Source of the DNA: Phoronis australis | Taxonomy: Eukaryota; Animalia; Phoronida | Direction of reading: 5' to 3' | DNA: 64,000 bases | Assembly: GCA_002633005.1 (NCBI GenBank) | Contig: NMRA01000191.1 | Coordinates: 426,466-490,465, forward strand | Shown here: piece by piece, positions 16,001 through 58,783 of the stretch | Position numbering within the stretch: position 1 is the first letter of the stretch | Layout of the letters: each line of letters starts with the position of its first letter | The notes under the pieces: generated by a model | The model's database searches: none | What the model was told of the DNA's origin: nothing | The model's input: the letters and a program-made list of their open reading frames with translations, nothing else | Program-made: the position numbers and the translations under genes

Positions 16001-18697
16001 ATTCTAAGAGGAAACCCTGATTTTCAACCTCAGCTACTCTTACACCCTGCGCAAACCAAGAACACTGGCTTTCCAACACCCTCATGTTGGCTGTTTCGAG
16101 TATCTGACGAGTAGCTCATGTCATGTTCGTGAAAGTGCATGTCCCAGCACTCCAGGGTTAATATGCTAGTTGTTTAAATTCCACAGTGTTTCATTACTAA
16201 TTCAAGACGGCAGATGTGAGGGTGCTAGGCAGAAAGTTCTTGGTTTGAACTGGTTGTGAAAGAAGCTTTTAATAAAGCCAGCAGAGGGCGATGCAATTTT
16301 TTTCTGGAACCAGTTAATCCTCAACTCCCAGTAAAAGGAGCCAGGCGGCTCTGTATTGTTGAGAAAATATCACAATAAGCTGTAACTTATAATTTTCACA
16401 TCTATGTCTACGATTGCTTTTCATGAAAATGCATTTTTTGCAGGCTCTAGAATAGTTTACGAGAGGCAATTCCTGCTGAACTGCCGAGCGTCCCCATTAA
16501 CAAAGAGTCCACCAGCCAATCTACCAAAGATCCCCGGAGTCACTTGTCCCCTTGGAGAGGGAGATGAACCCAAGGAGAACGGCAGCGTGATCCATGAAGA
16601 ACCCGAGTCAGCTGCAGGTTTGTCACAGTTGTTGTAGTCTTCTGCCCACTTCGAGGGAATTTCATCTATGGTGCTCCCATCATTTTTCAAATGCATTTTG
16701 GGACGATTGTCGACTCGTAAATATCTGTTGTCATCGTAGATAACTTTGAGAGGTGTAAAAACTATGTCAGAAAACAACATTGTCACCAGAATTGAAAGTA
16801 TGGGTAAACTGCCACGTAGTGTAAGTTGTGAGTATGTAGCCATCCTACAGAAATAGAAGATTGAAAGTGAACCTCAAAATGCATTGAATTAATACATAAA
16901 TTAGCAAATGTTTTCAATCACGCTGAAGTTCAATCTTAACACCTATAATGCAGTCTGTAAATCTGGTTACATGAGCCGACAGCCGTCCCACAATGCATTT
17001 AAAAAGCGACGGCCGCTCTGTCCATGAAATGTCGAGTTTGAAAAACAGCTCCTGTTTGGTATTTAGAAGCGTAAATTTTCAAAAATGTGTCTGTCGCTTG
17101 TGTTTTTGCAATAAAAACCGTCTCGATGCAAAGAGATTTCATTCAAGTTCATGTGGCTTAGTCAAAGATTTGGTGTCGACTCAAACGAAAACCAGACTTA
17201 AAAATAATATAAAAACATTTGATAATAAGTAAAAAATAACAAGTTATCAAAAAATTCAACCAATTTCCAAGAAGAGGGAATTACATTGGCTTATTGTACT
17301 TGGGTCGTGCTACTGCTTAACGTAGACCGTCTTGAACATCACGGCAATATAGATTGTAGACAACAGATGCGCAACTCTGATATTTTTTGATACAGGTGCC
17401 ACTTCGTTTCAGTGCCCAACTCAACTTCCAATATGTGATCCGATGATGTACTTGCCAGAAGTAAAATGTGCATCACACCAGGCTTGCGCGCAGGATCACA
17501 AATTTTGAGAATATATAGAGAGTTGGCAGTCCACGTACTATAGTCTCTAGTCGTGTCCACACACAGACTTAGCCCAGAATAACTTGAACTTGTACAACTT
17601 GCCCCACTTTTAGCAGAGTGTCTACACACACATATATCCAATACTTAGCACAAGGTGGAAGTTGTTGCTTTACACATGACAATGAACAGCTGATATGAAT
17701 ACAGCTCGAAGTTGTCACAAGTGGGGCAAGTTGCACTAGTTTAAATAGCCCCAGGCAGAGCCCAAACCTACCGACATCCTGTTCCAGGAGTAACTTGTTC
17801 TAGGGTAAGTCCGTGTGTGGACGTGACTTATGATGGTTTGGCTGAGTCTGTGTGCAAGCATTTTGCTAAAACGGCCAATGTTTGGAGACCACACTGACAT
17901 TGACCTCAAATGATCAGAGATTAGTGGGATATCTGCATTTGGTTGTGAGGAGTCGGCATACCAGGCAGAGTAAAACTGGTCAACCGATGATAGTGGAAAA
18001 CTGGAATTAAACAAGTCGTGCAGTTCCATGCAACGTGTGGCGAGGAAGACGAATGTGCTATATTCTTCTAACCATAAAATGTCAATGGAACGTTACTCTT
18101 TGCTGGTGTGTAAGCTGTATATGACTTTCACACGAGTGGCGAAAACACTGGCAGTTTTTCTGTAGTGAAAGCATGACCATTTTAGTCAGAACGACCAGCT
18201 GTCCGTGAAGGCGTATTTTCCTCAGTGATTTCCTTGCAACTCAACACACTTTTAAAGGGAAAAATTAGTTTGAAAAGCGTTCACTCTGTTATTAGTTGAT
18301 GAACACAACTATAAACTAAAGTATCTTTCCAGTGGGCATGTGTGTCCTTTGAAGTAAGTTGTCTGACTACAAAAAAGCCAGGAGAGATACCAACAATTTT
18401 GGGGCAACTTGAAGTGCCATCAAGAGTGACACTTGCAACCACTCTGTCATTTTTTCACAACTGGCACAAGTGCTAGCAAAAATGCTGGTGTTCTAGCCAG
18501 TTTGTGAATGGGGCAGTGGTGAGCTACTAGTCTATGTGTCTTGTGGGCAACCAAACCAGAAGGCACGTAGACCGAGGGCATCACAGTCTAGCGAAAGTCT
18601 TGGAAAGGCACATTACTTAACGAAAAATTGTAAAATGGCTTTGTCTTTTTTTTCAGAAGTACCGAAGGAGGAGCCTCAGTTTGAAATGGATATTTAA
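10086..18697 (+). CDS. EIF4EBP: Eukaryotic translation initiation factor 4E-binding protein (4E-BP/Thor)
   Basis: Exons 10086-10233, 16444-16617 and 18657-18697 (phases 1,1). The protein has the RAIP motif, the [16 protein letters not shown] phosphosites, the eIF4E-binding motif YERQFLL (YxxxxL-phi), SPLTKSPP and the C-terminal TOS motif FEMDI before the stop. Confidence 0.97.
11062..12452. mobile_element. Non-autonomous hAT-like DNA transposon with 5-bp TSD
   Basis: Perfect 11-bp TIRs CAGGGCTCGAC / GTCGAGCCCTG. Direct repeat AATGC on both flanks. Clustered subterminal CAG(G/C)TCGCATT motifs at both ends. No transposase ORF. Confidence 0.85.
13640..14149 (+). mobile_element. hAT-like MITE family A, copy 1
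   Basis: TIRs CAAGGCTTGGAAT / ATTCCAATCCCTG. Highly similar inverted copies at 48996-49489 and 63711-64000. Confidence 0.85.
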
Positions 18698-21375: not shown

Positions 21376-24255
21376 GTCTGTCTTTTGTTTATTGATTTCA
21401 AATACCATTATGAATATAACTATCACTAGCGCTGTCTGGAGTGTATTTTTGTGTATTTTTGTCTATGCATCTCCCTATCTAGCAAGGCATGGGTTGACTA
21501 TGACAAAAAGGGGACAATCTTCCTGGTGATGTAGCGTTCCACAAATAAATGGGATTGTGCGATGGAAATAATTTTGTGTTGTAAAATTTAACTGAAATAA
21601 ACGTTTTTGCATGAATCAGTCAAAATAATGATGAAAAAGTAAACTGAAAATCAAATGAGAGGAAATCGAAGTTAAAAAGAGGAGACTTCCAAGTCTTGAT
21701 CCTGGTCCACGTTTGTTTTTGAAGTAATTGCTTTTTTCTGACTAATACAAAATGATTTTTGCTTATGTACTGCGTACATTTACGACTTCAGTCGCAACCA
21801 GGGTTGCGTTGTGTAGTCGCAAGGATCTTGTGAGTAACGATGGTATGGTCAGGCGCTTCACTTGCAATGCATGGTGATTTTTTGCGAGATTCTTGCGTTT
21901 ACAGAAGGCAACCCAGGTTTACATTGTGCACGCAAGTCATAAGTTTTTGGGTCATGATCATTCTAAGCGCATTAGCCTTCAAGTGCATTCGAACAGGCTT
22001 TGTAAAATTAGGCTGCATTTAGAAAACTTAAGCTTTAGTAGGAAAATTGTGCGTAAATCATGCTTTTCACACATAATGACACTGCACATGTGCTACACAG
22101 TAGTTATATTGTTCAGCACCATTGTTTCTTGATTCTAAATCCGAAACCAGTTTGCAGATTGGTGCAAGATAAATTTGCATAATCTTTGCATCTAATGGCC
22201 ACCATTATTTAAATTCTGTTTCTGTTTATGTCAACTTCCTTCCAGGCGCTACATGTAGATTCTTTACGTTTGCAAACATGTTTTTGTGGTCAGTGAATAT
22301 AACGAAATCAGTATGCAGGTCATTACCCTCATAAATTTGTATAATTTATGTACATTGAGACGGCGAAAAGTAGTTTGGCTCATCATCTTGGTTGCACGAC
22401 TGTCGGTGGTTTGATAATTAGTTTGAGAGACTTTTGTACCCGGCGACTGGACCATCTGAAACAAGAGTTGTATTGTACCTGCTTAAAAATAAATGTATTA
22501 GTGAATAAATGCATTTTAAATGAAAGCTTATAAAAAGGACAGTAAAATACCTATACTACATTTTATAAACTCAAAAATTTTTGATATTCACCCATAAGTT
22601 TTATTTTGTTTTCGGTATTGATTGACCAACCACTCACTGTTTCACAATGCAATTTACAATACAGTGCAACATAACACAATAAATGCAATTCATTATAAGA
22701 AACCCTAATATTAGAAGTAGTATTTGGCATGCAAATAAGTTACCACAGTCACCAATTTAGACACCGGACAATATGCTTAATTTTTTCATGAAAGTTAAAT
22801 TGTCATTTTTAAATTTTTAGTTTACCGCACTTACGATAAGACAATTTTGTGGGCACTCGCAGCAATGTCAGATTAAAGCTTTTAAAAAGAAAACTCTAAA
22901 AGATAATTTTTCTCCAAAACTAATGAGATTTTGAATAAAGCAACAGATAAGATTAGTCGACGGCCGGAAGAACGAAAATTATAAGCAAAGCATGAAGTAT
23001 TTCAGTATAATTACAGAATGGGATAGGCGCGTCGTAAACCACCTGAGTGCTTTACTAGTGGAGTTTAAGCATCGTCATTCTTAGAAGTTTCCATTCTGTT
23101 GCTCGGCACGGCGAGCATATTTGGACGGAAACGGTTCGCTTACCAAATTTCTCTCAGAATCCAGGCTTACGAGCCTTAATTAAGTAGTTGGCCTATGTCT
23201 TGAATAGAGCTATCACCATAATATGGAAAAGGCACATGAAAAGAGCTAGAGTTCAAAGCCGGCGCGCTGATCTAGTGAAAACGATATTTAGTAAGCCTAT
23301 AACTAATTTAAATGCATTCCCCGTCAAATAAGATAGGGAACCTTTCTGAGTTGAGTGGTTAATGAATTGGACTTGGTATTTATCAGTATCTCTGGTTTAA
23401 TGGCTAGATCTAGAGTTTATACACCTGAAAAAGCCCGGCGGCCCGGGCACCTCAAGCTTGCGGGCTTCAATCACGCTCTCGTCCAACTGAAGGCGCGGGG
23501 GGACAGGCGTTGGTGACAACTTGTATCTGTCTATGATGGTCAACTAAAACGTTCATTACATGGATTTATTGGGCAAGGTCAAAGCTATAATACATTTCTC
23601 CCCGTTTAGATAAGTACTAAAATGAAACTTGAATTGAAATCGTTCTCATAATATACCTCACCATGATCATGATCTTATACTCATCAACTTGAATTACAAG
23701 CAAAGCGTACTGTACGCGCCATTAGACTCGTTATCTCATGATTGGCCCGGCATGCAACTCAGTAAAATATTTTCTTGAGTAGCTGGTGGTTTTGACGTTC
23801 TTGTTGGCAACGAAATAGAATTTTCAACCATAGGTGCCTTAATTTGCACAATCTATGCAAATTTTAGATACCTCCACCCCCAAATTAAAGTGGCTGCATT
23901 AAATTCACTAACCATGGAGACATCAAAACAAAGCACGACTCCATAAGTTCGCCGGGCTACCCGGCCCGACCGCAGTGCCTGGTGAGAAAGCCAAAAATAT
24001 AATTTTGGATAAAAGCGGCCTTAATTTGTATACTTAAAAATGCTTAAGGTTGTCATGATTACAACCCATGAAACAAACAAGAAACTTTATTCTACCGAAC
24101 ATTTCTAGCTACCCATTTCTCATCGTGGCGACTGGACTTACAGTGCAAAGCGACCAATTCGTGGTGGTTTTCAGTTCGGCCACTAGGTGGATTACTAGTT
24201 GTGCAAAAAATACCGAACAAATCCGCAGTCATTTCCGATCAATAGACAGACAAAG

Positions 24256-27200
24256 ATGGCCGACTTATTGGGTGACGATCAAGTTCCCGAACTTCCACCT
24301 CAAGATGATGACCCTGCGGCTGACTTTTTAGCTCGAGAACAGTCAGAATTAGCAGCATTGGGGGATGATGACTTTGTGGGAGGTGTTTCTGGTGGAGGCC
24401 CACCTCCAGGTAAAGTAGAAGATGAGTTTCAAAGATGCGGTGACCGAACCGGCGGCGAACCCTCCCCCTCGCCGTCGGTGTTACAATGTACAAATACACC
24501 ATTCTCCTAAAATAGTCTTAGATTCTACTCTGACAACATGGCTTACCTGGTTGGAATGGTTAATGACGGTATTCCTGAATTTTATGTGTCTAAATTAACC
24601 TGAGGTGTTAAGAACCAGTCCTTCCACCTGTGACCTGTCCAATGGCAATAACCTTCCTTATAACGCCCGTTTTTCAAATTCAGTGCAGGTGCCTGGTTTA
24701 TTTATTACAACTCTCAGTAAACGCCTCAGTGCTTGTTTTAATGTTCTCACTGATGACTTAATTAAAATTTTACTGTACTCAGAGATCAGAGGTCGGCACA
24801 AGGCCACAAGGTCAAGGACTATAATTGTCAGTTCTGATGGTGGATGAAACTAAATCAGCGATCCAGTAACCATTGTTGATAGCATCAAACATAAGCAATG
24901 AATTCATTATGGCTTCTTTTGTGATAGTAATATAAACGTTTTTTTATATTTTAGATGATGGCTTTGACCCTATGGCACAGCAGGTAGGATCATGTAATGC
25001 TGTTATCAAGAGACATCGGTGATCAAAAATGAAAACCTGTAACGTTATTTGAAAAAGGGACTGTGATGACTGATATCTACCTTGTCAGATACAGAATAGA
25101 ATATACAATTCAAACACAAAGCCTCCCTCAAGTTGGATTTTTAATAAAAATCTTCGATCTAAAAATGATTATCTATTAAAAAATGGCTGTCCTGTGATTA
25201 CAACTTATCACGCGACGTTTTGAAACATTTATTAATTATTTAATATCATTGAGTATTCAGAAAATATGTAATAAATACTTTTATGTGTTCAAAGTGAATG
25301 TTGACAAATTTTACCTGCCTTGAATCATGAAGCAATACAACACGCAACTTTGTTACAAGGCACGGGCTGTGACTTTTGTAAAGTTTGGGTTGTACTATTT
25401 TTCTAAATTAAATTTTGATTTTGTATTATGTCAAAATTATATCTTTATGGCGGTTGTTGTACCTTTACTTTAGAGCCATCCATGTAAATAGTTTCACTAC
25501 ACTATTTCTTTTACCTCCTTATCTCAGATACCAGGGATTTTTACTTATTACTCATGTTATTGGCCATGTAAATTGATGTGTTTTTTAGATTTCCAAGTGA
25601 TATTTAGGAATGATTTTGACTGCAAGCATATTTCAAGATGCATATTTCACTGCTGAGCTGTGGTCTACACATTCAGACTATTATCAAATTGTCACAGAGG
25701 GACATGACTATTATCAATTGCATAGCAGATGATGCTACTACTTCTTGTGTTGTAACATGCCATTGTTTCCTTTTCTGTTAGTTATGACATGTTGTTTCTT
25801 CGTTTGTTGTTCTTGTCTGTGAGACTACTTGTAGTGTCATCTTGATCATGCCTGACCCCATAGTTTGAGTTGTGACCTTCACCTTCATTATGCATGTTCT
25901 TCAGTTTCAGTCAGATGGTTTGGTAGATGACTTTGGTGGCACTCCAACTAATGATTTTGTAAGTTCTCAGATGAGTAGTCGTATTACAGAGATTTTGACT
26001 TTTGAAATGTTTGTGCCTAGTTAGTTCCCAGATTTAAAGATACTCTTTCCGCTCAAACGGTAACACAAGTTAGATCTGTCGATACGTAAGCCTAAATAAT
26101 GGCCATTCAAGACAGCTCCGTATGTTTTCAAACTAAATTTGATATGAAATTTTTAGTTTAATTTTTATTTTCGGTAATGCACTACCACCTAAAATGGCTT
26201 TCATAGTGAGTGACAGCTGACTCATGCATTGGGTACTCACTCAACTGCCACCATGTCTTATGAGGTTTTCGCGGAAACCCAGCCCTTTTTAAAATAACCT
26301 TTAAAGAGTATCTTTAATGCATTGACCATTCTGTGTTTAGCTGCTAGTACATTATGTTAACCTTGATCTGTGCTTCTAGATGAGTTAACTGTTTTACTTT
26401 CTTCTGTTCATCTCTTATGTTTGTGAATTATTCATCTCCATATGCATTAACAACTTGAATTGCATTGGTTCACTGTGCATTACTTGACCACAATGCTCTG
26501 TAATTGTCTGTTCGGCGTGATATGCTTTAAATTCCATGGCACACAAAAGCTTGTATGAGAGCAGAAGTAAATTGATTCTGTTTCAATTTCTGCAAAAATT
26601 ATCCCATCAAGCTGGTTTTGTCCACATGCTGTGCTTGGATCCTTGGGTACCAAAATCTAAGTGTAAACCAAGTGTTAGTTTTTCATAGGGGGGGAGGGGG
26701 GGCTATGTTTCTCACGTGTCTCCCTAACACCGAGCATGGATGAGATCATAAGTTAACAGCTAAGAAGGAGCACACTGATCACCTTCGGTCCTGGATCCAT
26801 CGATGCTCGGATACACTCAGCTATACTGTGTTAATTTCTGCAGTACTGCATGTGTTCTTGATTGCTATGTTAAGTCTCTTTCCTACACGTGCACCTGTTT
26901 TAGATGCAACCCGCTGCTTCCAACGAAGCAGATTTCTTCGGTAATGAGCCCCAGCAAGATCCAGCCGGATACGATTTTCTTGAGGACGTAAGTCAACAAT
27001 ATGCTTCGTTACTGCTGGTTTTATTGAGCAGTGGGGGTCCTGGAACTAGGCTGTTGGTTTCTCAGATGGTTGCAAGCATTGGGTTCTTATGCTAGTCGGT
27101 GGGCCAAATCTCATAGCGTTCACCCTTGTGAGTACTTTGGGGGGGCAACCTAGTTTTTTCTATGTGGCTAGATAATATAACTAAAAATCAAATTCCAAAA

Positions 27201-30200
27201 AGTTCCCTCGTCTACACTTGCACATTTTTTTTAAAAAAAGGTGTTTTTGTTGCACAAAATATGATGCATATTCCTGCCACTTGATGGCGCTTTTCTAGTG
27301 AATTGACCAATCAGAGAGCCAGATTGTATTGTTGTGCTTAGTTACTTCAATATGGCTGCTCCCATGGAATGTGATGTCTGTATAATTCAAGGTTTATCAA
27401 ACAGCACAAAATTGTGATGTCAGAGCCTAAAGAAGCTTAGGAAAGCTTCCTGACGAAAGCTGATTGACTGTGGAACTCTGTAGATCAGTAGATCAAAAAG
27501 AAGAAGAGGTGTCACAAACGTTTGTGCAGAAAACAGCTGCATGTCCTGGTAGCCTACACAGTATACTGCTGAGTGCTATAGACTAGAATACCAAGTGTCA
27601 GACCAGAAAATTGAAAGGACATAGAACGGCATAGCAACGTTTCAAGGCACCAACAGTAGTACTAAAGCTGAAGTTGCTGAAAGTGATACAGATGTTATCC
27701 AAGATTTCCCAAGAAAATCAATCACTTCCAAAATCTGAAACACCCAATTAACCTGAACAAGATAGGAACATTCTGAAACATGAGTGCATCATTTGTTAGC
27801 AGGAAAAGTACATTATGGGCCACATTTCAAGAAAGAGAAAGAAGTATAGCTTTCAAAAACAGGTACGTGTTTTTTAAAAATACATTTTGGTGTTTTCCAC
27901 GTGTGATTCAGTATTATCACCAGTTGTTTTTTAACTTGTTCAGCCCCTTGACTGCCTAGGCCTTAGACAATACTGCTGACCCAGTAGAGACGATGATCAT
28001 ACTATAGGTACTTCATATGCCGGATACTTTTCGGCAAATTATGTTCCTATAAGTTTAGAAGTACCGCGTAGAGAGATGCCTCTGAGGAGGTCGTTAATGT
28101 TTTCATTTGTTCCCAGTTTAAACAAATACTCCTGCAATCCTGTTTTTCGAACACTCCATTCAGTTGCCACATCGACACTGCTTGCGCTAAGGGATAATCC
28201 TATGGCGTTATACTGTGGGTGTGATTTTAAAGCACTTTAAGTCNNNNNNNNNNNNNNNNNNNNNNNNNNNNNNNNNNNNNNNNNNNNNNNNNNNNNNNNN
28301 NNNNNNNNNNNNNNNNNNNNNNNNNNNNNNNNNNNNNNNNNNNNNNNNNNNNNNNNNNNNNNNNNNNNNNNNNNNNNNNNNNNNNNNNNNNNNNNNNNNN
28401 NNNNNNNNNNNNNNNNNNNNNNNNNNNNNNNNNNNNNNNNNNNNNNNNNNNNNNNNNNNNNNNNNNNNNNNNNNNNNNNNNNNNNNNNNNNNNNNNNNNN
28501 NNNNNNNNNNNNNNNNNNNNNNNNNNNNNNNNNNNNNNNNNNNNNNNNNNNNNNNNNNNNNNNNNNNNNNNNNNNNNNNNNNNNNNNNNNNNNNNNNNNN
28601 NNNNNNNNNNNNNNNNNNNNNNNNNNNNNNNNNNNNNNNNNNNNNNNNNNNNNNNNNNNNNNNNNNNNNNNNNNNNNNNNNNNNNNNNNNNNNNNNNNNN
28701 NNNNNNNNNNNNNNNNNNNNNNNNNNNNNNNNNNNNNNNTAATGTGAGTGTAATATTGTTCAATACAATGGCACTGATGGGACCATATTACTTGTTTTAC
28801 AAAAAAGTCACCAAAACTGTTGTTTTTACAAATATAAGTTTACTAAGCTCTTTGGTGATTATTAGGTAACTTCAAACTCAAATTTCTCAAAAATGTGCAA
28901 CTTTATATGTGGGAACTTTTTAGATTTTGAAAACACTCTAATAAATGAACTAAAAAACACCAAAATAAAATTGCCCCCCTAAAGTACTCACAAAAACCAT
29001 TTTCTAGAGGCCCTACAAAATCTGGCCCACCGACTATGCCTGAATTGTTTCTACTGTGTGTACTGTGTAGTTCTGTAGATTAGAAAGCACTGTTTTTAAC
29101 TATTACGTGTGTTCAGTCAACTTTATTTTCCATGAAATTGGGTTCCCTGTCAACTGTTTAGTTTTCATTTTTCTGGTGGCGGGTTGCATGTTGCATTCTT
29201 GGTACTAGTCGCATATAATGAAACCACATTTTGAGAACCAGCCTGTTGCCCGTTATTCAACGGGGAAAACTGGTTCTCAAAATGCAGGTACGTTACATCC
29301 GACAACTAACGCATTCTTTAGAACCAGCCACTTTTAATCCCAGTCAGGTATTATGTTCAATATTATCCAACATGCCAGATACTTGATTATTTATGAGGAA
29401 CTAAATTCGAAGCAATGCACTAGTCTGATGGCAAATATACAGATATACGAACATTTAATCCTGATAATGTTATTAAAGTTTGGCATATTGGTGTTTTTGT
29501 TGATATTCAAAAGTTAAAAGTAAAGGCTACTGATAAAAGTTAAAAACTAACTTAGACAATGGTTGTATAGTTCCCCGTGGTGTATTTGCTATTTATATTA
29601 CAATTCAAAGTGACATAAATGGTTCAGCAAATGGACCACACCTTGGTTTTGCATTTACTTCCATTCAGTTATCATGAGTGATTGTTGCAGTCTGTGTGCA
29701 ATAAGCAAGTACAATATTGGAAGTGAATGGAAAACTGAGATGCAGACCTTTGCTTGGCCATTCACGTCACTTTGTATTATTCCATGGATAGTAAATACAT
29801 GCCAGGGGAACAGAATTCAATGTGGAAAATATCTTTCTAAGGTGGTCTGTTTTTTTAAAAAGCTGTTTCGTGCCTCTCTTACGGTGAGGGTTAAAATTAC
29901 ACTAAACACCGCCTCATCAAACGTGTAGCCTTTACTTTTAAGATAGACGTTAGCTAGACACGTGCATGCTTATGTTCTAGACGGTGCCTCCTGCTTCAGA
30001 CGAAGCAGATTTCTTCAATTCTGCACCTGAGGACACATCTGGATTTGGCATGGATGACGTAAGATTTTCTTGATTACCACCAAATCTGTAGGCACTTCTG
30101 AGAAGAAGGGATATCCCTGTTTTGTAGCTTACTGGATAGTATGGTGTCGAATTGTTGTGTATTTTTGGTGTAAAATCCAACTGATTTTGTTTTATTTGCA

Positions 30201-33200
30201 TTGCTGACCTCATTGGTTCACAAGGAAAAAGTAACCCAGACTGTCACGTCACACTGCTAGGGTGACATGTTTATTATTTTAATTTTCATGCCAGGCACAG
30301 TTTTCTCCTAGTTACGTTTGGCTAGAAAAGCATGCTCTTCCCTGTATCAATTGTATTTGTTTGAATATCGGATGCTATACTTTCACTTCCCCAAAACGAA
30401 ATATACTCAGCTCTGCATTATCCGAACCCAGTGAATGTGGCCGACCCTTTCGACGCGTTCAGTGTGTTGCAAGTTTGCGTGGCTTTCTACTTCAGCAACT
30501 GCCAGAACAGAATGGTCCAAGCGATGCCTACTCTGCCATTAGCTCAGTAGACCGAGAACGGCAAGAACCTGAGAAGCTGAAGCAATGGAAGGCAGAACAG
30601 AAGGAAATGTTGACCAAGAAGGGTAAGTCGGGGCAAACTGCCCCCAGGCATGGGCGGCGCATCACAGGGGTGCTGGGGGCTGTAACCTTCACTTTTTCAG
30701 TGCTTTGCCCCCCATGCTAGGGGACTTATAAATATTGTTTTCACTTCTATTCGTTGAATTGGTGACCTATTATGCTCTATCTAATGTTTTAATGTTTTAC
30801 TTAGTGGTGTAGTGGTTGAAGTTATTTGGGTCTTCAGGGTGGTAAGTACTACTCTGACAAAATGTCTTTCAATTTTGTTGACGGTTGTTAATCCATCTGG
30901 TTTTTTTACTTTAACGTTTATTGCTGGGGATTACAAAGATCCCTGCCTGTTGAAATAAAGACAGCTTAACAAAGGCTTTATGCGGGAATTTTGTAGGAGA
31001 TTTTAGATGTACACCCATCATTTTGAAAGGAATTGGGCATTGTGGTGCCAAAGATGAGTTGATTAGTTTGTACGTAAGACTGCATATGTGTGCTTTTGGA
31101 AGTCCAAAAATCACAAATACTGCCTGTGAACTCCAGTCCATATGTAATACTACTGCAGAAAACTATAAGTGTACACTTGGCTCAGTTCATAATTTAATTT
31201 GTTTCTTCTGACAAATGTGTAATCAAAACGAAATCAGCATTTAAATATATACGAGTGCCACATTCTCTGAGTTGTTGCGTTTCTGAAATGCATTCATTGT
31301 GTTATTTTACAGACGCTGATGAAGAAGAAAAAATTAGTGAGTGGCAAGTGACAGCCAGGCAAGAACTTCAGGACTGGTACAAGCACCAGAACGAACAGGT
31401 GGAGAAAACAAAGGTGTCCAACAGGTAGGCCATCTCACTGAGCTTTGGGAACAGGTTTGTGCTGGTGACCTGATAGGTCAACATCTGGCACTTGTTTCAG
31501 CCCAATAATTTCTTGTCCATTTGTCTGTGCAGAAAAAACTGGTAGTCATCAGATCAGTTTTAAAATTGAACTTAGGAAATTGAAAAATAACTGTTTATGC
31601 TAAAGGTCATGTTTTGCAGTTGTGTTTGCTGTGCATTGCTTTGTTACTGCAATTATTTTTAAGTTTGTCACTCTAATATGATCAAAGACTGCTGTTATTA
31701 ACAAAATTGAACTCTCCGAGACACTCAGTAAAATTACGTCTAACCAGTGACCTTGCGAACACCGGGCCCCTCTACACCTCAACTACTTTTTTCAACATTT
31801 TGTCAGCTCATGACACGATGATCGTGGGTTGAGAGCTGAAGAAAACATCATTAAAGGCATTTACTGTGCATTGGAGCCTGCCATACATTCTGTAGACGTG
31901 AGAACTTTGCCAAAATGCAAAGCGTGTATTAGAAGGAAACATGCGAACACACTAGCTTTAGTCGCAAGACTCTTTAGTCTACACAACTCAGCCCTGGTAT
32001 TCAACAGAACACTGAATAGTGAAGGCACGCTTTTATTAGAAAACAGGTTGCTTCTGGCTTCCTATTTGATTTGGCATGGCAATTGACATTTTTCAAAAAT
32101 TGGCATTTTATTTTATTATTTGGCCAGAACATGCATCTGTTAATAGGTGATGTAGCACAATTTTGTTCTGTAATTGAATGTCTGATGACGGTGTTGCCCT
32201 AACCGATTCTAGAAATAATACGAATATTGAGATCTAACACAATGACATCATTCAGTCAGCAAAGCTAGACCACAGTGCCCCCTTTTGAAATCGTGGAGCA
32301 TCATTGTTAGTAACCCTGCACTAACACTTCTACTGCACAATCCTCACTATTGTATACTTTCTTTTGCCACGCTTATAGGATTGCCAACAAGTGAGTAATT
32401 CCTATGGCGTTTGTTGTTGCGGTCACCTGGTGCAAGGTGTTAGCCTGTTGTAGTTTTGGTTGTGTTTGTCGATATGGAGATGGTGGTTGCATAATTGTGT
32501 ACTACCCACGAATCTTAAATAAGTTCAGAAAAAGGTTCTCCATCAGAGAAATTGCTTGTAGCTGACCTCTTTAGGAATTTCCCTTCTGAGCCTCGTCACT
32601 TGTGGTTTGTGGTAGATATTAGTCCACATGTATTGTTTGTGCAATTGAAGTACTGTAGATATTCAATGTTAAGCGCAATTTACATTGGAGTGAAAAGTAC
32701 AGTTGTCTGCATTGGCCATACGTCACATCATTGTCAATCGGCAAAAACATTTCGGCTTTTTGTAGCAACTGTACACAGTTTACAACTGAAAATTTGTTCT
32801 CTTCTAGTGCCCTGTTACAAGTGAATATTTCAATCTGTTGTTCTTTGTATCTTATTGAGGATTCATTACATCGATACTGGGAGCAGTCATGCCCATAAGA
32901 GAACACTTCATATGTAGTCTTGTGCAGATGATGCATTGCATTGACCTAAAAATGTAAGAACGAGTGATTAAGTGAGATCTGGCGAGATGAGAGGCAACAT
33001 AGTTTACACAGGGCACTTCATTTCATAACTAATTAATCGTACTGTAAATCTTATTGATAGATGTGCTGTGTATATGCAGTCATTTATGAGAAAAACACAA
33101 CTACACTTGTTACCGAACTTTCAAAGGTTAGAGAAAGGAGTGACTAAGTTCGTTCCGGTCTCGTTTGTCACTCCGATGACTCGTTCTAGTAAGACATGTC

Positions 33201-33687
33201 TCTCTCGCTTGGACCTATAAATTACCATGCAACTGGCGTGTCGGTTTCACTAGATGAGTAATTGATTGCGCACTGTAGCAGTCACACTGAGGGAAGAGAA
33301 CTACTTTATGTGCACATTTTAGTCCCTGATATGAGTAAGATAATAGCCTTATGTAGCAAATGTTAGAATAGGTTCTTTTAAAATTCTTTGACAATACAGA
33401 ATGTAACATTAATTCTCTGCCTCTTCACAACTGTGAAAATACCTCTTGGTTTTTCTCATCTCAATTTCCAATGATTGGCTATTTGGTTTCTAAACTTGCA
33501 CCTTTGTCATTACAGAGAGGCAGAAGCAGAATTCGTCAAGGACAGGGACGAATCAGTGCCAGGGCAGGACTGGGAACGCATTGCTCGCCTGTGTGAATTC
33601 AACCCAAAAAATTCCAAGAACACAAAAGATGTTTCAAGGATGCGATCAATACTGCTTCAGCTTAAACAAACACCTTTAGTCCGCTAA
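24256..33687 (+). CDS. CLTA: Clathrin light chain (CLTA/CLTB co-ortholog)
   Basis: Exons 24256-24409, 24955-24983, 25905(or 25911)-25958, 26904-26987, 29981-30058, 30496-30622, 31313-31424, optional 32379-32390, and 33516-33687. Conserved DDDPAADFLAREQSELAALGDD consensus segment, EPEKLKQWK...ELQDWY helix, and C-terminal WERIARLCEFNPKNSKNTKDVSRMRSILLQLKQTPLVR. Inclusion of the small internal exons is inferred. Confidence 0.95.
26904..26987 (+). CDS. Clathrin light chain cassette exon A (84 nt, phase 0-0)
   Basis: ttttag|ATG...GAC|gtaagt; encodes MQPAASNEADFFGNEPQQDPAGYDFLED. Paralogous to 29981-30058. Confidence 0.8.
27093..29036. mobile_element. DNA transposon remnant with 17-bp TIRs, spanning an assembly gap
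   Basis: TAGTCGGTGGGCCAAAT at 27093 and ATCTGGCCCACCGACTA ending at 29036, with TGC on both flanks. The interior has decayed Cys-rich coding-like sequence. Superfamily not assigned. Confidence 0.7.
28244..28739. other. Assembly gap (N run)
   Basis: Run of N. Confidence 1.
29981..30058 (+). CDS. Clathrin light chain cassette exon B (78 nt, phase 0-0)
   Basis: ttctag|ACG...GAC|gtaaga; encodes TVPPASDEADFFNSAPEDTSGFGMDD. Shares ctgcttc..acgaagcagatttcttc with exon A. Confidence 0.8.
32379..32390 (+). CDS. 12-nt microexon of clathrin light chain
   Basis: ctttcttttgccacgcttatag|GATTGCCAACAA|gtgagt. Phase 2-2 and frame-preserving; gives NR-IAN-K-EAEAEF. Confidence 0.75.
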
Positions 33688-34471
33688 CAGAAAAAAATAC
33701 AGTCCAGTTGTCATAGTACAGCAATTACAAATTACCTTTAGTAGATCTCCGAGACGTCGGTGACTTCTTCAATAGGACTATGTAGTTTACCAGACATCTA
33801 TTGCTAATTTATGATGATTAGCACCAATTTTCGTCAGTTTGGGTCTGTCGCAGGTGGCAGGATTAAAGCAACGTATAGTCGATTATGTGTCATTAAATTG
33901 ATGTTGTATATATGTGTAATCTGGCATTAAAAAGTTCTGTTTATGTACAGTACTTGTCAAAAGTATTCAGACAAAATGACCACAGACTTCCCTGCAATGA
34001 TGGCTGAGTGGAAGCAGACTTCAATGCCAAGTAGTCATTCCCCATGCAGACCGAGAATTAAGGCAAATTAACAAGTTTATAAGGTTGCCAAGCCATCCTA
34101 TAACGAGAATTTCGCCATTTAGTTATTACCAGTCTGTTTGTTGTTCATGAATTAACTGTCGTGACTGGGAAAATGGGGTTATGCTTGATTACTTTTGTCT
34201 TGTACTGTAAACTCAAAGTGGAAGTCATAACCTTGTTAGTGAGCGTTAAGAAATTAAATCTGTTCGAAAGCCAACAGGTGGCAGCATCTCTTCAACACAT
34301 ACGTCTCTTAGTTTCACCACAGTTTGTGAGTTAGTTAAAAAATAATCCATAACCAAATACTTAGTTGAAAACTAAAGTCACCAACATGTAGGTGCTGAGT
34401 AGAATCCATGCCGATTGATTTCAGTTGTCAAGTAATTTACTATTTAGTTCTAATAACTTCAAACATTCATG

Positions 34472-35350: not shown

Positions 35351-36384
35351 GCTATTCATGGACAAAGGATTTCCTAATAATTAAGATCATTGCAAACAAG
35401 ATCTACTTTCCCAGGAAAAAATAAGTAACACGGCATGTTCTTGTGATACATAACAATGTTGGACCCTTGTGTTTTTCCACTTGGAGCTTTCTGTAGTTTC
35501 CAATGTTACCATTAAGAGCCCCGTTTTCCAAAGGCTGCAGGAGTACCTACAGAATCTCCAAAGAACAGTATTTTTGAAAATGACATTAGGAGAACCAGTT
35601 TCCTGTTAAACAAGAGACTTAGGTGTTATCCCCTAGTTCTTAAAATCTAAACCAATTTATCTCATTTACCGTCTCTTATGAAGAGGTCTTATTAAAGATA
35701 AGCCCACAAATACCCGTGAACACCCAGATAAATCTAGTGCTGAACAAGTGACTTGGAAGGATAACGTTACTGGGCTGAATGCTTCAGGTTTCCATAACTG
35801 GGTAATAGTCACAGGGTACTGGATTTTGAGTATCAGTTGATGCCTGTTGTTCAGTGGAAGAAACTGACTCAACAGGTGGGGCCCCTATAACTATTGCCAT
35901 TCCTCACAAGACAAACATCTCGAGCTTCATAGAATTGAACAGTGCATGGTTCACCTTCCAGATTATTGCCATTTAACTACAAAAGGTTTATGGAATATAC
36001 AGTCCATTTCTCTCAACAAACTACCATAAAATGACTTCCAAGGGAGAGGCAGAACACCCGTTTAGCAAATAGTTTCATAAGAACAATTCCAGGAATTTAA
36101 AATACCCGGTAGATAATCTTTTTCTGAAAATGTCAAAATCTTCCAATAACCAAGTTATTTCATCCCCATATTTGCTGTATTCACCCAAAAATTCTCTGGG
36201 ATGATTCGTTCCATGTTCGCTTATGATGTACAATCATTCAAGAGCAAACGACGGGCAACACTCCTAGTTTTCAGCATCGTACTTTTTAAAAATCCACGAT
36301 GGTCTAGTTCCACTATCATAGTCAATGTCCTCTTTATTATTTACACTCACTAAAGACTGCAAGACAGACAAAACAAATACTTCA

Positions 36385-38618
36385 GAGAAAGCTCATGAAC
36401 GAACCTTTATTATAATCACTAGCGAAAAACACAAAAATTATACAATGGATTCCTTTATACAACCATTTACAGTAACACTACATCTACTACATTAAAATGT
36501 TACACTGAAATCTACACCGAGAAAGCAAAGTGTTTATTCACACAAACAATGATTTCAACCATTAAATAATTACACAAAAACGAAATTTGAAGATGAATGA
36601 ACTTTCCTTTCAATTCTGTACAAGGCATTTCAGATGGGCTATTTAAGAAAAATGTACAAATTGAAGAAGTAAATATACAGCCTAGAAATTATTTACGATT
36701 TATACAGAAAAAAATATAGACACGAGTGTTGCAGTGTACTATAATCCCGAGTTCCACTCATCTTTACATTATACAAAAATGACTTGTTTATTGCGAGAAC
36801 GCGTAGCTCTCCAGCACACCAGGTGACTTCCATAGTAAAATAAATAATTTCTTTACAAGATGTACACTTTACACTATACAGAAATTTACAGCCAGGCAGA
36901 TTATGATTACAGTAGACTGTAAGAAGTGTCCAAACTGACAGGAGTGTGCTCTGGAGCGAAAATCGAATGCAAATGTGAACGTGGAAAAACTAAATCTATT
37001 ATGGTTGTACCTAGTGCCTAGGCTACCACATGAAGACTACCACAATTGTTTATTAACATATAACAGTCACCCATGGATGGACACAACACAAAGTCAGCCC
37101 AGTGAATTCAGGTTGCACAAAATTACAATTTACAAATTTACACTCTTTCATCTATGCTTTACACTATGTTTACAGGTTACACGGACAGTACTAAAATAGT
37201 ATAATTTAAACTCTTGCCTATCACAAACACTCCCCACTGGTATAATTACAGAAAGCCGAATACATTTTTCTCCCAACACACACATGAGCCTCCCTAAATT
37301 ATACAGTAGGTAATCACGGCTGGCGCCTACATAGGCCCCCCTTGATGCACACGCAGTACTGATACTGAGGAGGAAAAGAAAGGTACACGTGAAAGTTATG
37401 AAACCAACGGCTACCCCTTGGGCTTTAAGACATTCTAAACAACCTTGCATACCTAGAAATTTACAGAGACCCTCATTGGAGTGATGTACAATTTTTACAA
37501 ATGGCTCTTAACAAAACATGGCCCATTTATACAACATGGTGGTATCAAAAATCGAGTTTCACAACTGTTCATAAGACTATACAAGCTTAGCACCACTCAC
37601 GCCAATAACCAAATGTTTGCTATTTTACAGCTAGAAAGTCGTTTTTTTACATTGGGCAAACTCAACATCAACTAGACCAAATGTACAAATCAGTTTGAAA
37701 AAATAGTGCATTTCACGTCTTATCTAATTGACACTGACCCTCTCATTTCCATTAATGTACAAATGCATTGGCACGCATGGGTTGTCGCCATGAAGAGTCT
37801 GTTGAATGAGCGAAAAATTATTCACATCCCAAGGGGCCGCGCAGAGACTGCACGTGAAATTTACATACTTACATTTGTCTTATTTACAATTTACATAGGA
37901 TCAACAGGCTCATGAAGAAAATGCAAAGTGAAATATTGAACAACAATCGACTACGGGTGGACGTGTCAGGAAAAAACCATGAAGCCTATTTCGTTATTTC
38001 ATTACGGACATAAGACCTAAACTAACTCTACGTTGGATGGTACAACGTAAATACAACCAGCAAGAAATAATACCAGCCCTAGTACAATAAACACTCACAA
38101 CCGAGAAATGGATACAACTGAAATAATACGAAGGGGGTGGTTAACAGACAACTCAAAGGAAACATCTAAACCCAGTGCAACAAATAAACAACCTGCCTAT
38201 TCAGTAGCCACCCTATTACCTCAACTTTGGCATACAACATCTGATGGAAATTTTAAACAAATACTAAGTATGGGCATGTGATGGCGCATCTGTGGCATGC
38301 AGAGGAGTACATTCAAATAAATCGGACCAGACATCAGACCAAACTGAATGAATGACAGTAGCTGATAAAGTTTCATGAGCCTACGGTAAACTACAAAATT
38401 TATAGTGTATTCAACTACGTAAATGCAATTACTGACACACGCATGGACCAAGTAAACTAAATGACGTATTGTAAAAAAAGATCAAACAAAACTGATCTCA
38501 AACCGTGCCATGGCATCTTGACAAGTGGTCCGACTCAAATGAACATCACCTCAACAATTTCTACCGAAGTGGTATCACAAATAACCCAAGAACATCAGTA
38601 ATCGCCCCTGCTCCCCGG
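36385..38618 (-). promoter_or_regulatory. Pumilio 3' UTR with dense Pumilio response elements and poly(A) signal
   Basis: AATAAA (minus) at 36411-36406 with a GU-rich downstream element. One canonical UGUAAAUA (37888-37881) and ten UGUAHAUU motifs counted by eye. Confidence 0.7.

Positions 38619-58783
<20,165 letters not shown>

What the first reader, a model, noticed from the sequence alone, without database searches (positions are those of the whole stretch)
32320..32396. 12-nt microexon at the position of the vertebrate neuron-specific clathrin light chain insert
Seen: a branchpoint-like CTAAC (32321), a pyrimidine tract containing TGC (32365-32367) shortly before the AG, the exon GATTGCCAACAA and a strong donor gtgagt. 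It is phase 2-2 and inserts between ...KVSNR and EAEAEF... to give NR-IAN-K. Established: the vertebrate brain-specific LCa/LCb exons insert at this same NR junction and begin RVADE/RIADK. A UGC near the 3' splice site is the SRRM3/4 (eMIC) neural microexon signature. Inference: the neuronal light chain isoform has a pre-vertebrate origin as a microexon. Gene predictors would miss it.
Basis: partly seen in the sequence, partly recalled or inferred. Interest (0 to 1): 0.72.

Follow-up and report, generated by a model that had tools for sequence, protein, structure and literature searches.

The report
Ancient clathrin light-chain microexon
This invertebrate's clathrin light-chain gene splices a 12-base exon into about one in seven RNA reads, and its four amino acids match the start of the longer exon at the same site in amphioxus and vertebrates, so the vertebrate brain form likely descends from an early-animal exon that is likely nerve-specific here too.

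Summary
The microexon is real. RNA reads with the same species label show a 12-nt insert at the NR junction in 36 of 257 junction reads (14%). Its printed core occurs once in the intron, at 32380. The host is a protostome-type clathrin light chain. Amphioxus carries a 24-residue insert at this junction that starts VANK, against IANK here and IADK/VADE in vertebrates (p about 7e-5 singly, about 0.001 after 22 comparisons). Some snail and nemertean inserts share a nine-residue motif with the chordate ones. Best reading: an alternative exon from the bilaterian ancestor, likely longer, cut to 12 nt here. Against: insects, bivalves, octopus and a brittle star have unrelated inserts here, so convergence is a live rival. 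Neural inclusion is untested, and the UGC alone says little (5 of 7 other acceptors have one). Mouse Clta's exon is listed as eMIC-dependent. NCBI models already hold such inserts in other species. No paper in my searches and no earlier scan note describes the pattern.

The parts
32379..32390 (+). 12-nt alternatively spliced microexon, phase 2-2, adds I-A-N-K after NR
   Evidence: sequence; inclusion joint in 36 of 257 junction reads of three RNA runs
32321..32325 (+). branch-point-like CTAAC, 58 nt before the exon, inside a 66-nt AG-free zone
   Evidence: the only one of 8 acceptors of this gene with a CTRAY in its AG-free zone; use as branch point is inferred
32326..32378 (+). pyrimidine-rich tract (71% Y over -40..-3) with TGC at 32365-32367 and acceptor TAG
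   Evidence: TGC within 20 nt also at 5 of 7 other acceptors
32391..32396 (+). 5' splice site GTGAGT; reading on past it meets a stop at once, so no longer exon remnant follows
   Evidence: sequence
31313..31424 (+). upstream constitutive exon (end of the heavy-chain-binding helix, ends NR)
   Evidence: RNA joints; Pfam PF01086 E 1.1e-5
33516..33687 (+). coding part of the last exon (C-terminal segment, ends at TAA); the 3' UTR follows
   Evidence: RNA joints and depth; Pfam PF01086 E 8.9e-18
24256..24409 (+). first coding exon of the clathrin light-chain gene (ATG at 24256)
   Evidence: many molecule ends at 24245-24254; weak Pfam match E 0.019
24955..24983 (+). exon 2 (29 nt)
   Evidence: RNA joints
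25905..25958 (+). exon 3 (54 nt)
   Evidence: RNA joints
26904..26987 (+). N-terminal cassette exon (84 nt), skipped in part of the reads
   Evidence: RNA joints; similar to 29981-30058
29981..30058 (+). N-terminal cassette exon (78 nt), likely a tandem duplicate of the 84-nt exon
   Evidence: RNA joints; alignment
30496..30622 (+). exon 6 (127 nt)
   Evidence: RNA joints

Best explanation
The 12-nt exon is spliced into a minority of clathrin light-chain transcripts and adds four residues at the junction where vertebrates insert their neuronal exon; it is likely a shortened descendant of one alternative exon of the bilaterian ancestor and is likely included mainly in neurons. Shown: the exon, its splicing, its position, and that amphioxus, vertebrate, some snail and nemertean inserts begin with a related motif. 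Inferred, step by step: (1) the ancestral exon arose as a partial tandem copy of the first 9-10 codons of the last exon; (2) chordates kept it and lengthened it to 18-24 residues, while this lineage gained an earlier 5' splice site that left four codons; (3) the short exon is skipped by default and is switched on by a neuronal Srrm234/eMIC isoform acting on the branch point, long AG-free zone and UGC; (4) the extra four residues, about one helical turn, shift the C-terminal segment near the triskelion vertex and tune coat curvature for synaptic-vesicle recycling, as proposed for the vertebrate inserts.
For: Splicing: 36 of 257 junction reads. Position: same NR junction as bovine/pig-type CLCb chains in PDB 6wcj/6sct and in alignment A1. 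Sequence: IANK scores 18 (BLOSUM62) against amphioxus VANK; p 6.6e-5 against the window's own in-frame 12-mers, 2.4e-5 against light-chain helix composition, about 1.4e-3 after the 22 other inserts of 4 or more residues compared. It scores 14 against CLTB IADK (p 5e-4). IANK scores 0 against its own last-exon start and at best 12 against any of 70 last-exon starts, so a recent local duplication does not explain it. Over 9 residues the Littorina insert scores 22 with amphioxus, more than with its own last exon (17), while amphioxus scores 3 with its own; Pomacea and Lineus score 11-15 with the chordates (p 0.001-0.006). Amphioxus versus vertebrates over 18 residues: p 3e-4 to 8e-4. Duplication origin: vertebrate, Littorina and Pomacea inserts score 15-20 against their own last-exon start (p 2e-4 to 5e-3). 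Regulation: CTAAC, long AG-free zone and UGC match the eMIC architecture described in PMC8797185 (passages). The full combination with an in-frame donor occurs once in the window against 0.17 in shuffles (criteria set after seeing the site). The mouse Clta 54-nt exon is listed eMICdep and the Cltb exon Neural (supplement table S2). Function: neuronal inserts change cage size and budding in vitro (PMC7519287, passages).
Against: The window's match rests on four residues, and the last one was not read directly. Many inserts at this junction share no motif with it: insect ESAK/EAAK (scores 1 and 4), bivalve RGNM/RDNM/KHNM (0-2), pulmonate, octopus and brittle-star inserts. Several species carry two different inserts (Littorina, Magallana, Octopus, Scleropages, CLTA), so exons are born repeatedly in this intron. 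A 2026 preprint finds same-position convergence common and only two confidently bilaterian-ancestral neural exons, neither in this gene (10.64898/2026.09.05.749416). Beyond residue 4 the amphioxus-vertebrate likeness is weak (p about 0.01). No insert was seen in the three hemichordate proteins or in most echinoderm proteins retrieved. Tissue is unknown and inclusion did not differ significantly among the three runs (p 0.30). UGC is common at this gene's ordinary acceptors, the last exon has a longer AG-free zone (114 nt), and no UCUC run is present. The phylum is not fixed: the protein groups with lophotrochozoans without starred support and on a long branch. Exon status and phase in other species come from protein isoforms, not their genomes.
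Confidence: 0.5

Rival explanations
1. Same-position convergence. This intron is a hot spot for new exons. The 12-nt exon arose on its own in this lineage, and the likeness to chordates comes from chance, from selection for helix-continuing residues after NR, or from repeated copying of the last exon's start.
For: 25 distinct inserts at one junction among 62 insert-bearing of 341 anchored proteins, most of them unrelated. Two different inserts in several species. Some last exons themselves start VAEK or VAEA (scores 12 and 6 against IANK). The preprint reports frequent type I convergence.
Against: IANK/VANK is the only 4-mer reaching score 18 among 9,122 distinct light-chain helix 4-mers. IANK does not resemble its own last exon (score 0). 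The amphioxus insert resembles Littorina's (22) far more than its own last exon (3).
Confidence: 0.25
2. One reading: the bilaterian ancestor had a 12-nt neural microexon, kept at that length in this animal, insects and bivalves, and extended at its 3' end in chordates and some spiralians.
For: Four-residue inserts occur in three separate groups: this animal, Hymenoptera/Orthoptera and pteriomorph bivalves. Likeness to chordates is strongest in the first four residues.
Against: Residues 5-9 are also alike among snails, a nemertean, amphioxus and vertebrates, which would need parallel extension into similar sequence. The insect and bivalve 4-mers do not resemble IANK.
Confidence: 0.15
3. The exon is real but is not a neuronal eMIC target. 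It is included in another tissue (muscle, as for the vertebrate CLCa 12-residue exon) or at a low level everywhere. This can hold together with either history.
For: Inclusion is 6-17% with no significant difference among runs of unknown tissue. UGC is not special in this gene. The CLCa 12-residue exon is used in heart and muscle (PMC8712872, passages). No Drosophila clathrin light-chain row is among the 17 'Clc' hits of the fly tables.
Against: Branch point, AG-free zone and UGC occur together only at this exon. The matching mouse exons are neural and one is eMIC-dependent. Low inclusion is what a neuron-only exon would give in mixed tissue (inference).
Confidence: 0.25
4. Artefact: a chance AG..GT pair in an intron, never spliced.
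For: 102 in-frame candidates exist in this intron; the contig run X1 shows only the skipped form.
Against: 36 raw reads in three runs, from 12, 13 and 2 start places, carry the insert, whose printed core is unique in the intron.
Confidence: 0.02

Closest known systems
Vertebrate neuronal clathrin light-chain exon (CLTA/CLTB exon 5, 54 nt, 18 residues)
   Same: Same NR junction, frame-preserving, alternatively spliced, similar first four residues (IANK versus IADK, IADQ, VADE).
   Different: 12 nt instead of 54; lacks the AFY..IGYV part; no second 12-residue exon; neuronal use is shown in vertebrates and untested here.
Amphioxus clathrin light-chain isoforms X1/X2 (Branchiostoma, 24-residue insert; e.g. 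XP_035681986.1)
   Same: Same junction; first four residues differ by one conservative change.
   Different: 24 residues; database model only, tissue not checked here.
eMIC (SRRM3/4, Srrm234)-dependent neural microexons
   Same: Tiny in-frame exon, CUAAY branch point, long AG-free zone, UGC near the acceptor, membrane-traffic gene.
   Different: No UCUC run; strong rather than weak donor compared with fly targets; dependence on eMIC not tested.
Four-residue inserts in NCBI isoform models of insects (Megachile, Xylocopa, Vollenhovia, Schistocerca) and bivalves (Mytilus, Pecten, Mizuhopecten, Crassostrea/Magallana)
   Same: Same junction and same length.
   Different: Unrelated sequence (scores -2 to 4); their exon status was not checked on genomes.
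APBB1/2/3 (6 nt) and MADD (9 nt) microexons, the two bilaterian-ancestral neural exons of preprint 10.64898/2026.09.05.749416
   Same: Candidate deep ancestry of a small alternative exon at one position.
   Different: Those keep their length and have tissue data across species; this one varies from 12 to about 72 nt and lacks tissue data here.

Membership tests
Clathrin light chain (Pfam PF01086) | Profile match above the curated cut-off | tested here: met
   Last exon 65.5 bits and upstream exon 26 bits against cut-off 22; first exon 15.4 bits, below it
Microexon | Very short internal exon with AG/GT ends, spliced into mRNA | tested here: met
   12 nt; 36 of 257 junction reads
eMIC-dependent neural microexon | Frame-preserving, alternatively included | tested here: met
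   Phase 2-2, both forms in reads
eMIC-dependent neural microexon | UGC close to the 3' splice site | tested here: inconclusive
   Present at -14, but also within 20 nt at 5 of 7 other acceptors of the gene
eMIC-dependent neural microexon | Strong CUAAY branch point and long AG exclusion zone | tested here: met
   CTAAC at -58, 66-nt zone; no other acceptor of 8 has the motif, though the last exon's zone is 114 nt; features taken from PMC8797185
eMIC-dependent neural microexon | Polypyrimidine tract enriched in alternating UCUC (an enrichment, not present in every target) | tested here: not met
   No TCTC in the 70 nt printed before the exon (read by eye)
eMIC-dependent neural microexon | Inclusion restricted to neurons | not testable with these tools
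   Runs X2-X4 carry no tissue label
eMIC-dependent neural microexon | Inclusion depends on the eMIC domain; an Srrm234 eMIC exon exists in the genome | not testable with these tools
   No whole genome held; needs an experiment
Vertebrate neuronal CLC insert (18-residue exon) | Inserts directly after NR, before the last exon | tested here: met
Vertebrate neuronal CLC insert (18-residue exon) | Phase 2-2 in the same intron | tested here: inconclusive
   Phase 2-2 here. In others only indirect: NR becomes NS with another insert in P0461 (vertebrate type) and P0213 (oyster), as a split AG|N codon would give; no genomes available
Vertebrate neuronal CLC insert (18-residue exon) | Sequence likeness at the exon start | tested here: met
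   Score 14 with CLTB start (p 5e-4), 9-10 with CLTA and shark starts (p 0.003-0.01), 18 with amphioxus
Vertebrate neuronal CLC insert (18-residue exon) | 18 residues including the AFY..IGYV segment | tested here: not met
   Only 4 residues; no further candidate exon coding such a segment among the 25 best of 102 printed; no other joint in reads. Not filed as a member; treated as a likely homologue

The most novel reading that the evidence does not exclude
The neuron-specific clathrin light chain is not a vertebrate invention. One neural exon, born in the bilaterian ancestor as a partial copy of the last exon, survives from protostomes to mammals at lengths from 12 to about 72 nt under eMIC control. 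It would be a third bilaterian-ancestral neural exon, missed by length-based orthology, and would show a normal exon shrinking into a microexon.
Probability: 0.35. Interest if true: 0.72.

Novelty: new variant of a known kind. Interest (0 to 1): 0.57.

Why it matters
Reviews describe light-chain splicing as a vertebrate feature (PMC8712872, passages), and a 1999 paper's title reports no neuronal specialization in the fly gene (seen only in a reference list). A 2026 preprint could assign only two neural exons to the bilaterian ancestor. A spliced protostome microexon whose sequence matches the amphioxus and vertebrate exon start is a testable third case. It sits in a core synaptic-vesicle protein. 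It also offers a natural minimal insert (4 versus 18 residues) for asking which part of the neuronal insert changes coat curvature. If it is convergence instead, this intron is a striking hot spot with about two dozen different inserts.

Tried and rejected
No whole genome is held, so Srrm234 and paralogues were not searched. One search listed no holder on record as RNA in the index; the three raw-read runs were added by species label and then laid. A longer, vertebrate-like exon in the intron was sought and not found (no other joint). Alternative donor or acceptor use was rejected because the printed insert letters occur only at 32380. UGC as evidence on its own was rejected. Recent duplication of this gene's own last exon as the source of IANK was rejected (score 0). 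The tree (50 rows chosen by me from the stored proteins, one isoform each, no cnidarian or named minor phyla) did not fix the phylum. In one search, 8 rows with odd anchors and 10 unanchored rows were dropped from 359; one of the 25 inserts (P0017) looks like a gene-model read-through. The search of 50%-identity representatives (150 of 354 listed) gave no further IANK-like invertebrate insert among the 63 of 141 new rows that could be anchored; such representatives are mostly skip forms. Papers not held: Torres-Mendez 2019, Wakeham 2005, Stamm 1992. PMC6548504 and PMC12084633 had nothing on invertebrate inserts. No structure or complex was predicted, because the spliced protein is not a continuous stretch of the window and a lone helix model would not decide anything. 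Earlier scan notes: none relevant.

Full report
OBSERVATION. The window holds a clathrin light-chain gene on the + strand from 24256 to 33687 (Pfam PF01086). The exon is phase 2-2 and turns NR-EAEAEF into NR-IANK-EAEAEF. It ranked first of 102 in-frame candidates in the intron on a crude score.

SPLICING IS SHOWN. One search returned one contig run holding 10% of the words and three raw RNA runs with the same species label. Laid on the window, the raw reads show the skip joint in 95, 95 and 31 reads and a second joint with seven letters between in 15, 19 and 2 reads (re-lays the same runs and is not independent). The joint coordinates fix a 12-nt insert, and the seven letters occur once in the intron, at 32380. 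Pooled inclusion is 36 of 257 (14.0%, CI 10.0-18.9); the runs do not differ significantly (p 0.30). Caveats: the three runs are one study; only about a fifth of each run was read; five of the twelve letters were not printed; the reads are from other individuals or a near relative; the contig run shows the skip form only; tissue is unknown.

WHICH ANIMAL. The best matches to the last exon are molluscs, Lingula and nemerteans at 80-87%; full length is about 50%. In a 50-row tree the protein falls among lophotrochozoans (92/86, not starred), on a long branch, outside the starred branch holding deuterostomes and sponges. I read it as a protostome, likely spiralian; the phylum is not fixed.

RELATIVES AT THE SAME JUNCTION. 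Of 359 proteins examined (358 stored plus the window's), 341 were anchored; 279 have no insert and 62 have one, in 25 distinct sequences. Amphioxus isoforms carry 24 residues starting VANK. Vertebrates carry 18 residues starting IADK, IADQ or VADE. Littorina and Pomacea have 10 residues, Lineus 11. Four-residue inserts occur in insects (ESAK, EAAK) and bivalves (RGNM, RDNM, KHNM, SVYR). Pulmonates, octopus, Mya and a brittle star have other sequences. Three hemichordate proteins and most echinoderm ones show none. These are database isoform models; I could not check their genomes.

IS THE LIKENESS REAL. IANK against VANK scores 18: p 6.6e-5 against in-frame 12-mers of the window, 2.4e-5 against helix composition, and 1 of 9,122 distinct helix 4-mers; about 1.4e-3 after 22 comparisons. 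Against CLTB it scores 14 (p 5e-4). Against its own last exon it scores 0, and at best 12 against 70 last-exon starts. Over nine residues amphioxus, vertebrate, Littorina, Pomacea and Lineus inserts score 6-22 across phyla, while Amphiura, pulmonate and octopus inserts score -6 to 3 against them. The vertebrate and snail inserts also resemble their own last-exon start (15-20), but amphioxus does not (3) although it resembles Littorina (22). This fits one old partial duplication of the last exon, inherited and reshaped (inference). The nulls treat residues as independent and the chordate sequences are related, so the p values are guides.

REGULATION. PMC8797185 (passages) lists long AG-free zones, UGC near the acceptor, UCUC-rich tracts and CUAAY branch points for eMIC targets. 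The exon has the branch motif, a 66-nt zone and the UGC, but no UCUC. UGC alone is uninformative: 5 of 7 other acceptors have one within 20 nt. The whole pattern with an in-frame donor occurs once in the window against a shuffle mean of 0.17, with criteria chosen after the fact. In that paper's supplementary table S2 the mouse Clta 54-nt exon is eMICdep and the Cltb exon Neural; none of 17 'Clc' hits is the fly clathrin light chain. Neural, eMIC-driven inclusion here is therefore a fair inference (about 0.65) and not a result.

MECHANISM. Shown elsewhere: vertebrate neuronal inserts lie near the trimerization domain, give larger cages and alter budding; the authors propose contact with a neighbouring knee (PMC7519287, passages). 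Inferred here: four residues extend the helix end by about one turn and shift the C-terminal segment, a milder form of the same tuning.

RIVALS. Convergence (0.25) is serious: most inserts at this junction are unrelated, several species hold two, and preprint 10.64898/2026.09.05.749416 (passages plus sections 10 and 26) finds same-position convergence common. A 12-nt ancestor later extended (0.15) fits the three groups with four-residue inserts but not the shared residues 5-9. A non-neural exon (0.25) is not excluded and can go with either history. An unspliced artefact is excluded by the reads.

WHAT IS KNOWN. The vertebrate exon and eMIC microexons are well known, and NCBI models already contain inserts at this site in many invertebrates. 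Ten paper searches found none describing an invertebrate insert at this junction or its ancestry. The preprint's main text has no 'clathrin', 'CLTB' or 'Clc' and names only APBB and MADD as ancestral; its rule for unresolved groups allows 6 nt of length difference, which this family exceeds. Its supplements, the large supplement PDF of PMC8797185, Torres-Mendez 2019, Wakeham 2005 and Stamm 1992 were not seen and may bear on novelty. PMC8712872, PMC6548504, PMC12084633 and PMC2173062 were seen as passages only; the 1999 Drosophila paper only as a title. The scan's earlier notes hold nothing on this.

VERDICT. Observation confirmed, with RNA support. Interpretation partly supported: pre-vertebrate origin is likely, neural control is likely but untested, and the ancestor was more likely a longer exon than a microexon. 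New variant of a known kind; interest 0.57.

Noticed in passing
window 26904-26987 and 29981-30058: Two similar in-frame cassette exons (84 and 78 nt) in the acidic N-terminal part, likely tandem duplicates. All four combinations occur in reads; from the donor at 25958, 23 of 111, 18 of 70 and 28 of 44 reads skip the first, so run X4 skips it far more.
   Followed up: partly
window about 36000-56000, minus strand: A Pumilio gene (Pfam PUF, E 2e-39 at 39593-39961) lies tail to tail with the light-chain gene.
   Followed up: no
window 45251, minus strand: Within the Pumilio region, an acceptor-like site with a 90-nt AG-free zone, CTAAC and UGC, followed 32 nt later by GTGAG; not frame-preserving; no RNA test.
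   Followed up: no
window 27000-29550: Intron stretch with RNA reads from both strands and many variants, likely a transcribed repeat around the N gap.
   Followed up: no
window 31327: An extra A in an A-run in 18 of 200 and 8 of 132 reads (X2, X3), 0 of 48 in X4; would shift the frame; slippage or allele.
   Followed up: no
window 33946-33981: Short 3' UTR piece that draws many reads from elsewhere, on both strands; likely a repeat fragment.
   Followed up: no
P0318, P0358, P0387: Teleost-type CLCb proteins carry a further 7-residue insert in front of the 18-residue one at the same junction.
   Followed up: no
P0001/P0237, P0102/P0213, P0104/P0210: Littorina, Magallana/Crassostrea and Octopus each have two different inserts at this junction, which suggests several or mutually exclusive small exons.
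   Followed up: partly
window 16457-16873, minus strand: A 138-codon stop-to-stop frame with a hydrophobic start; not identified.
   Followed up: no
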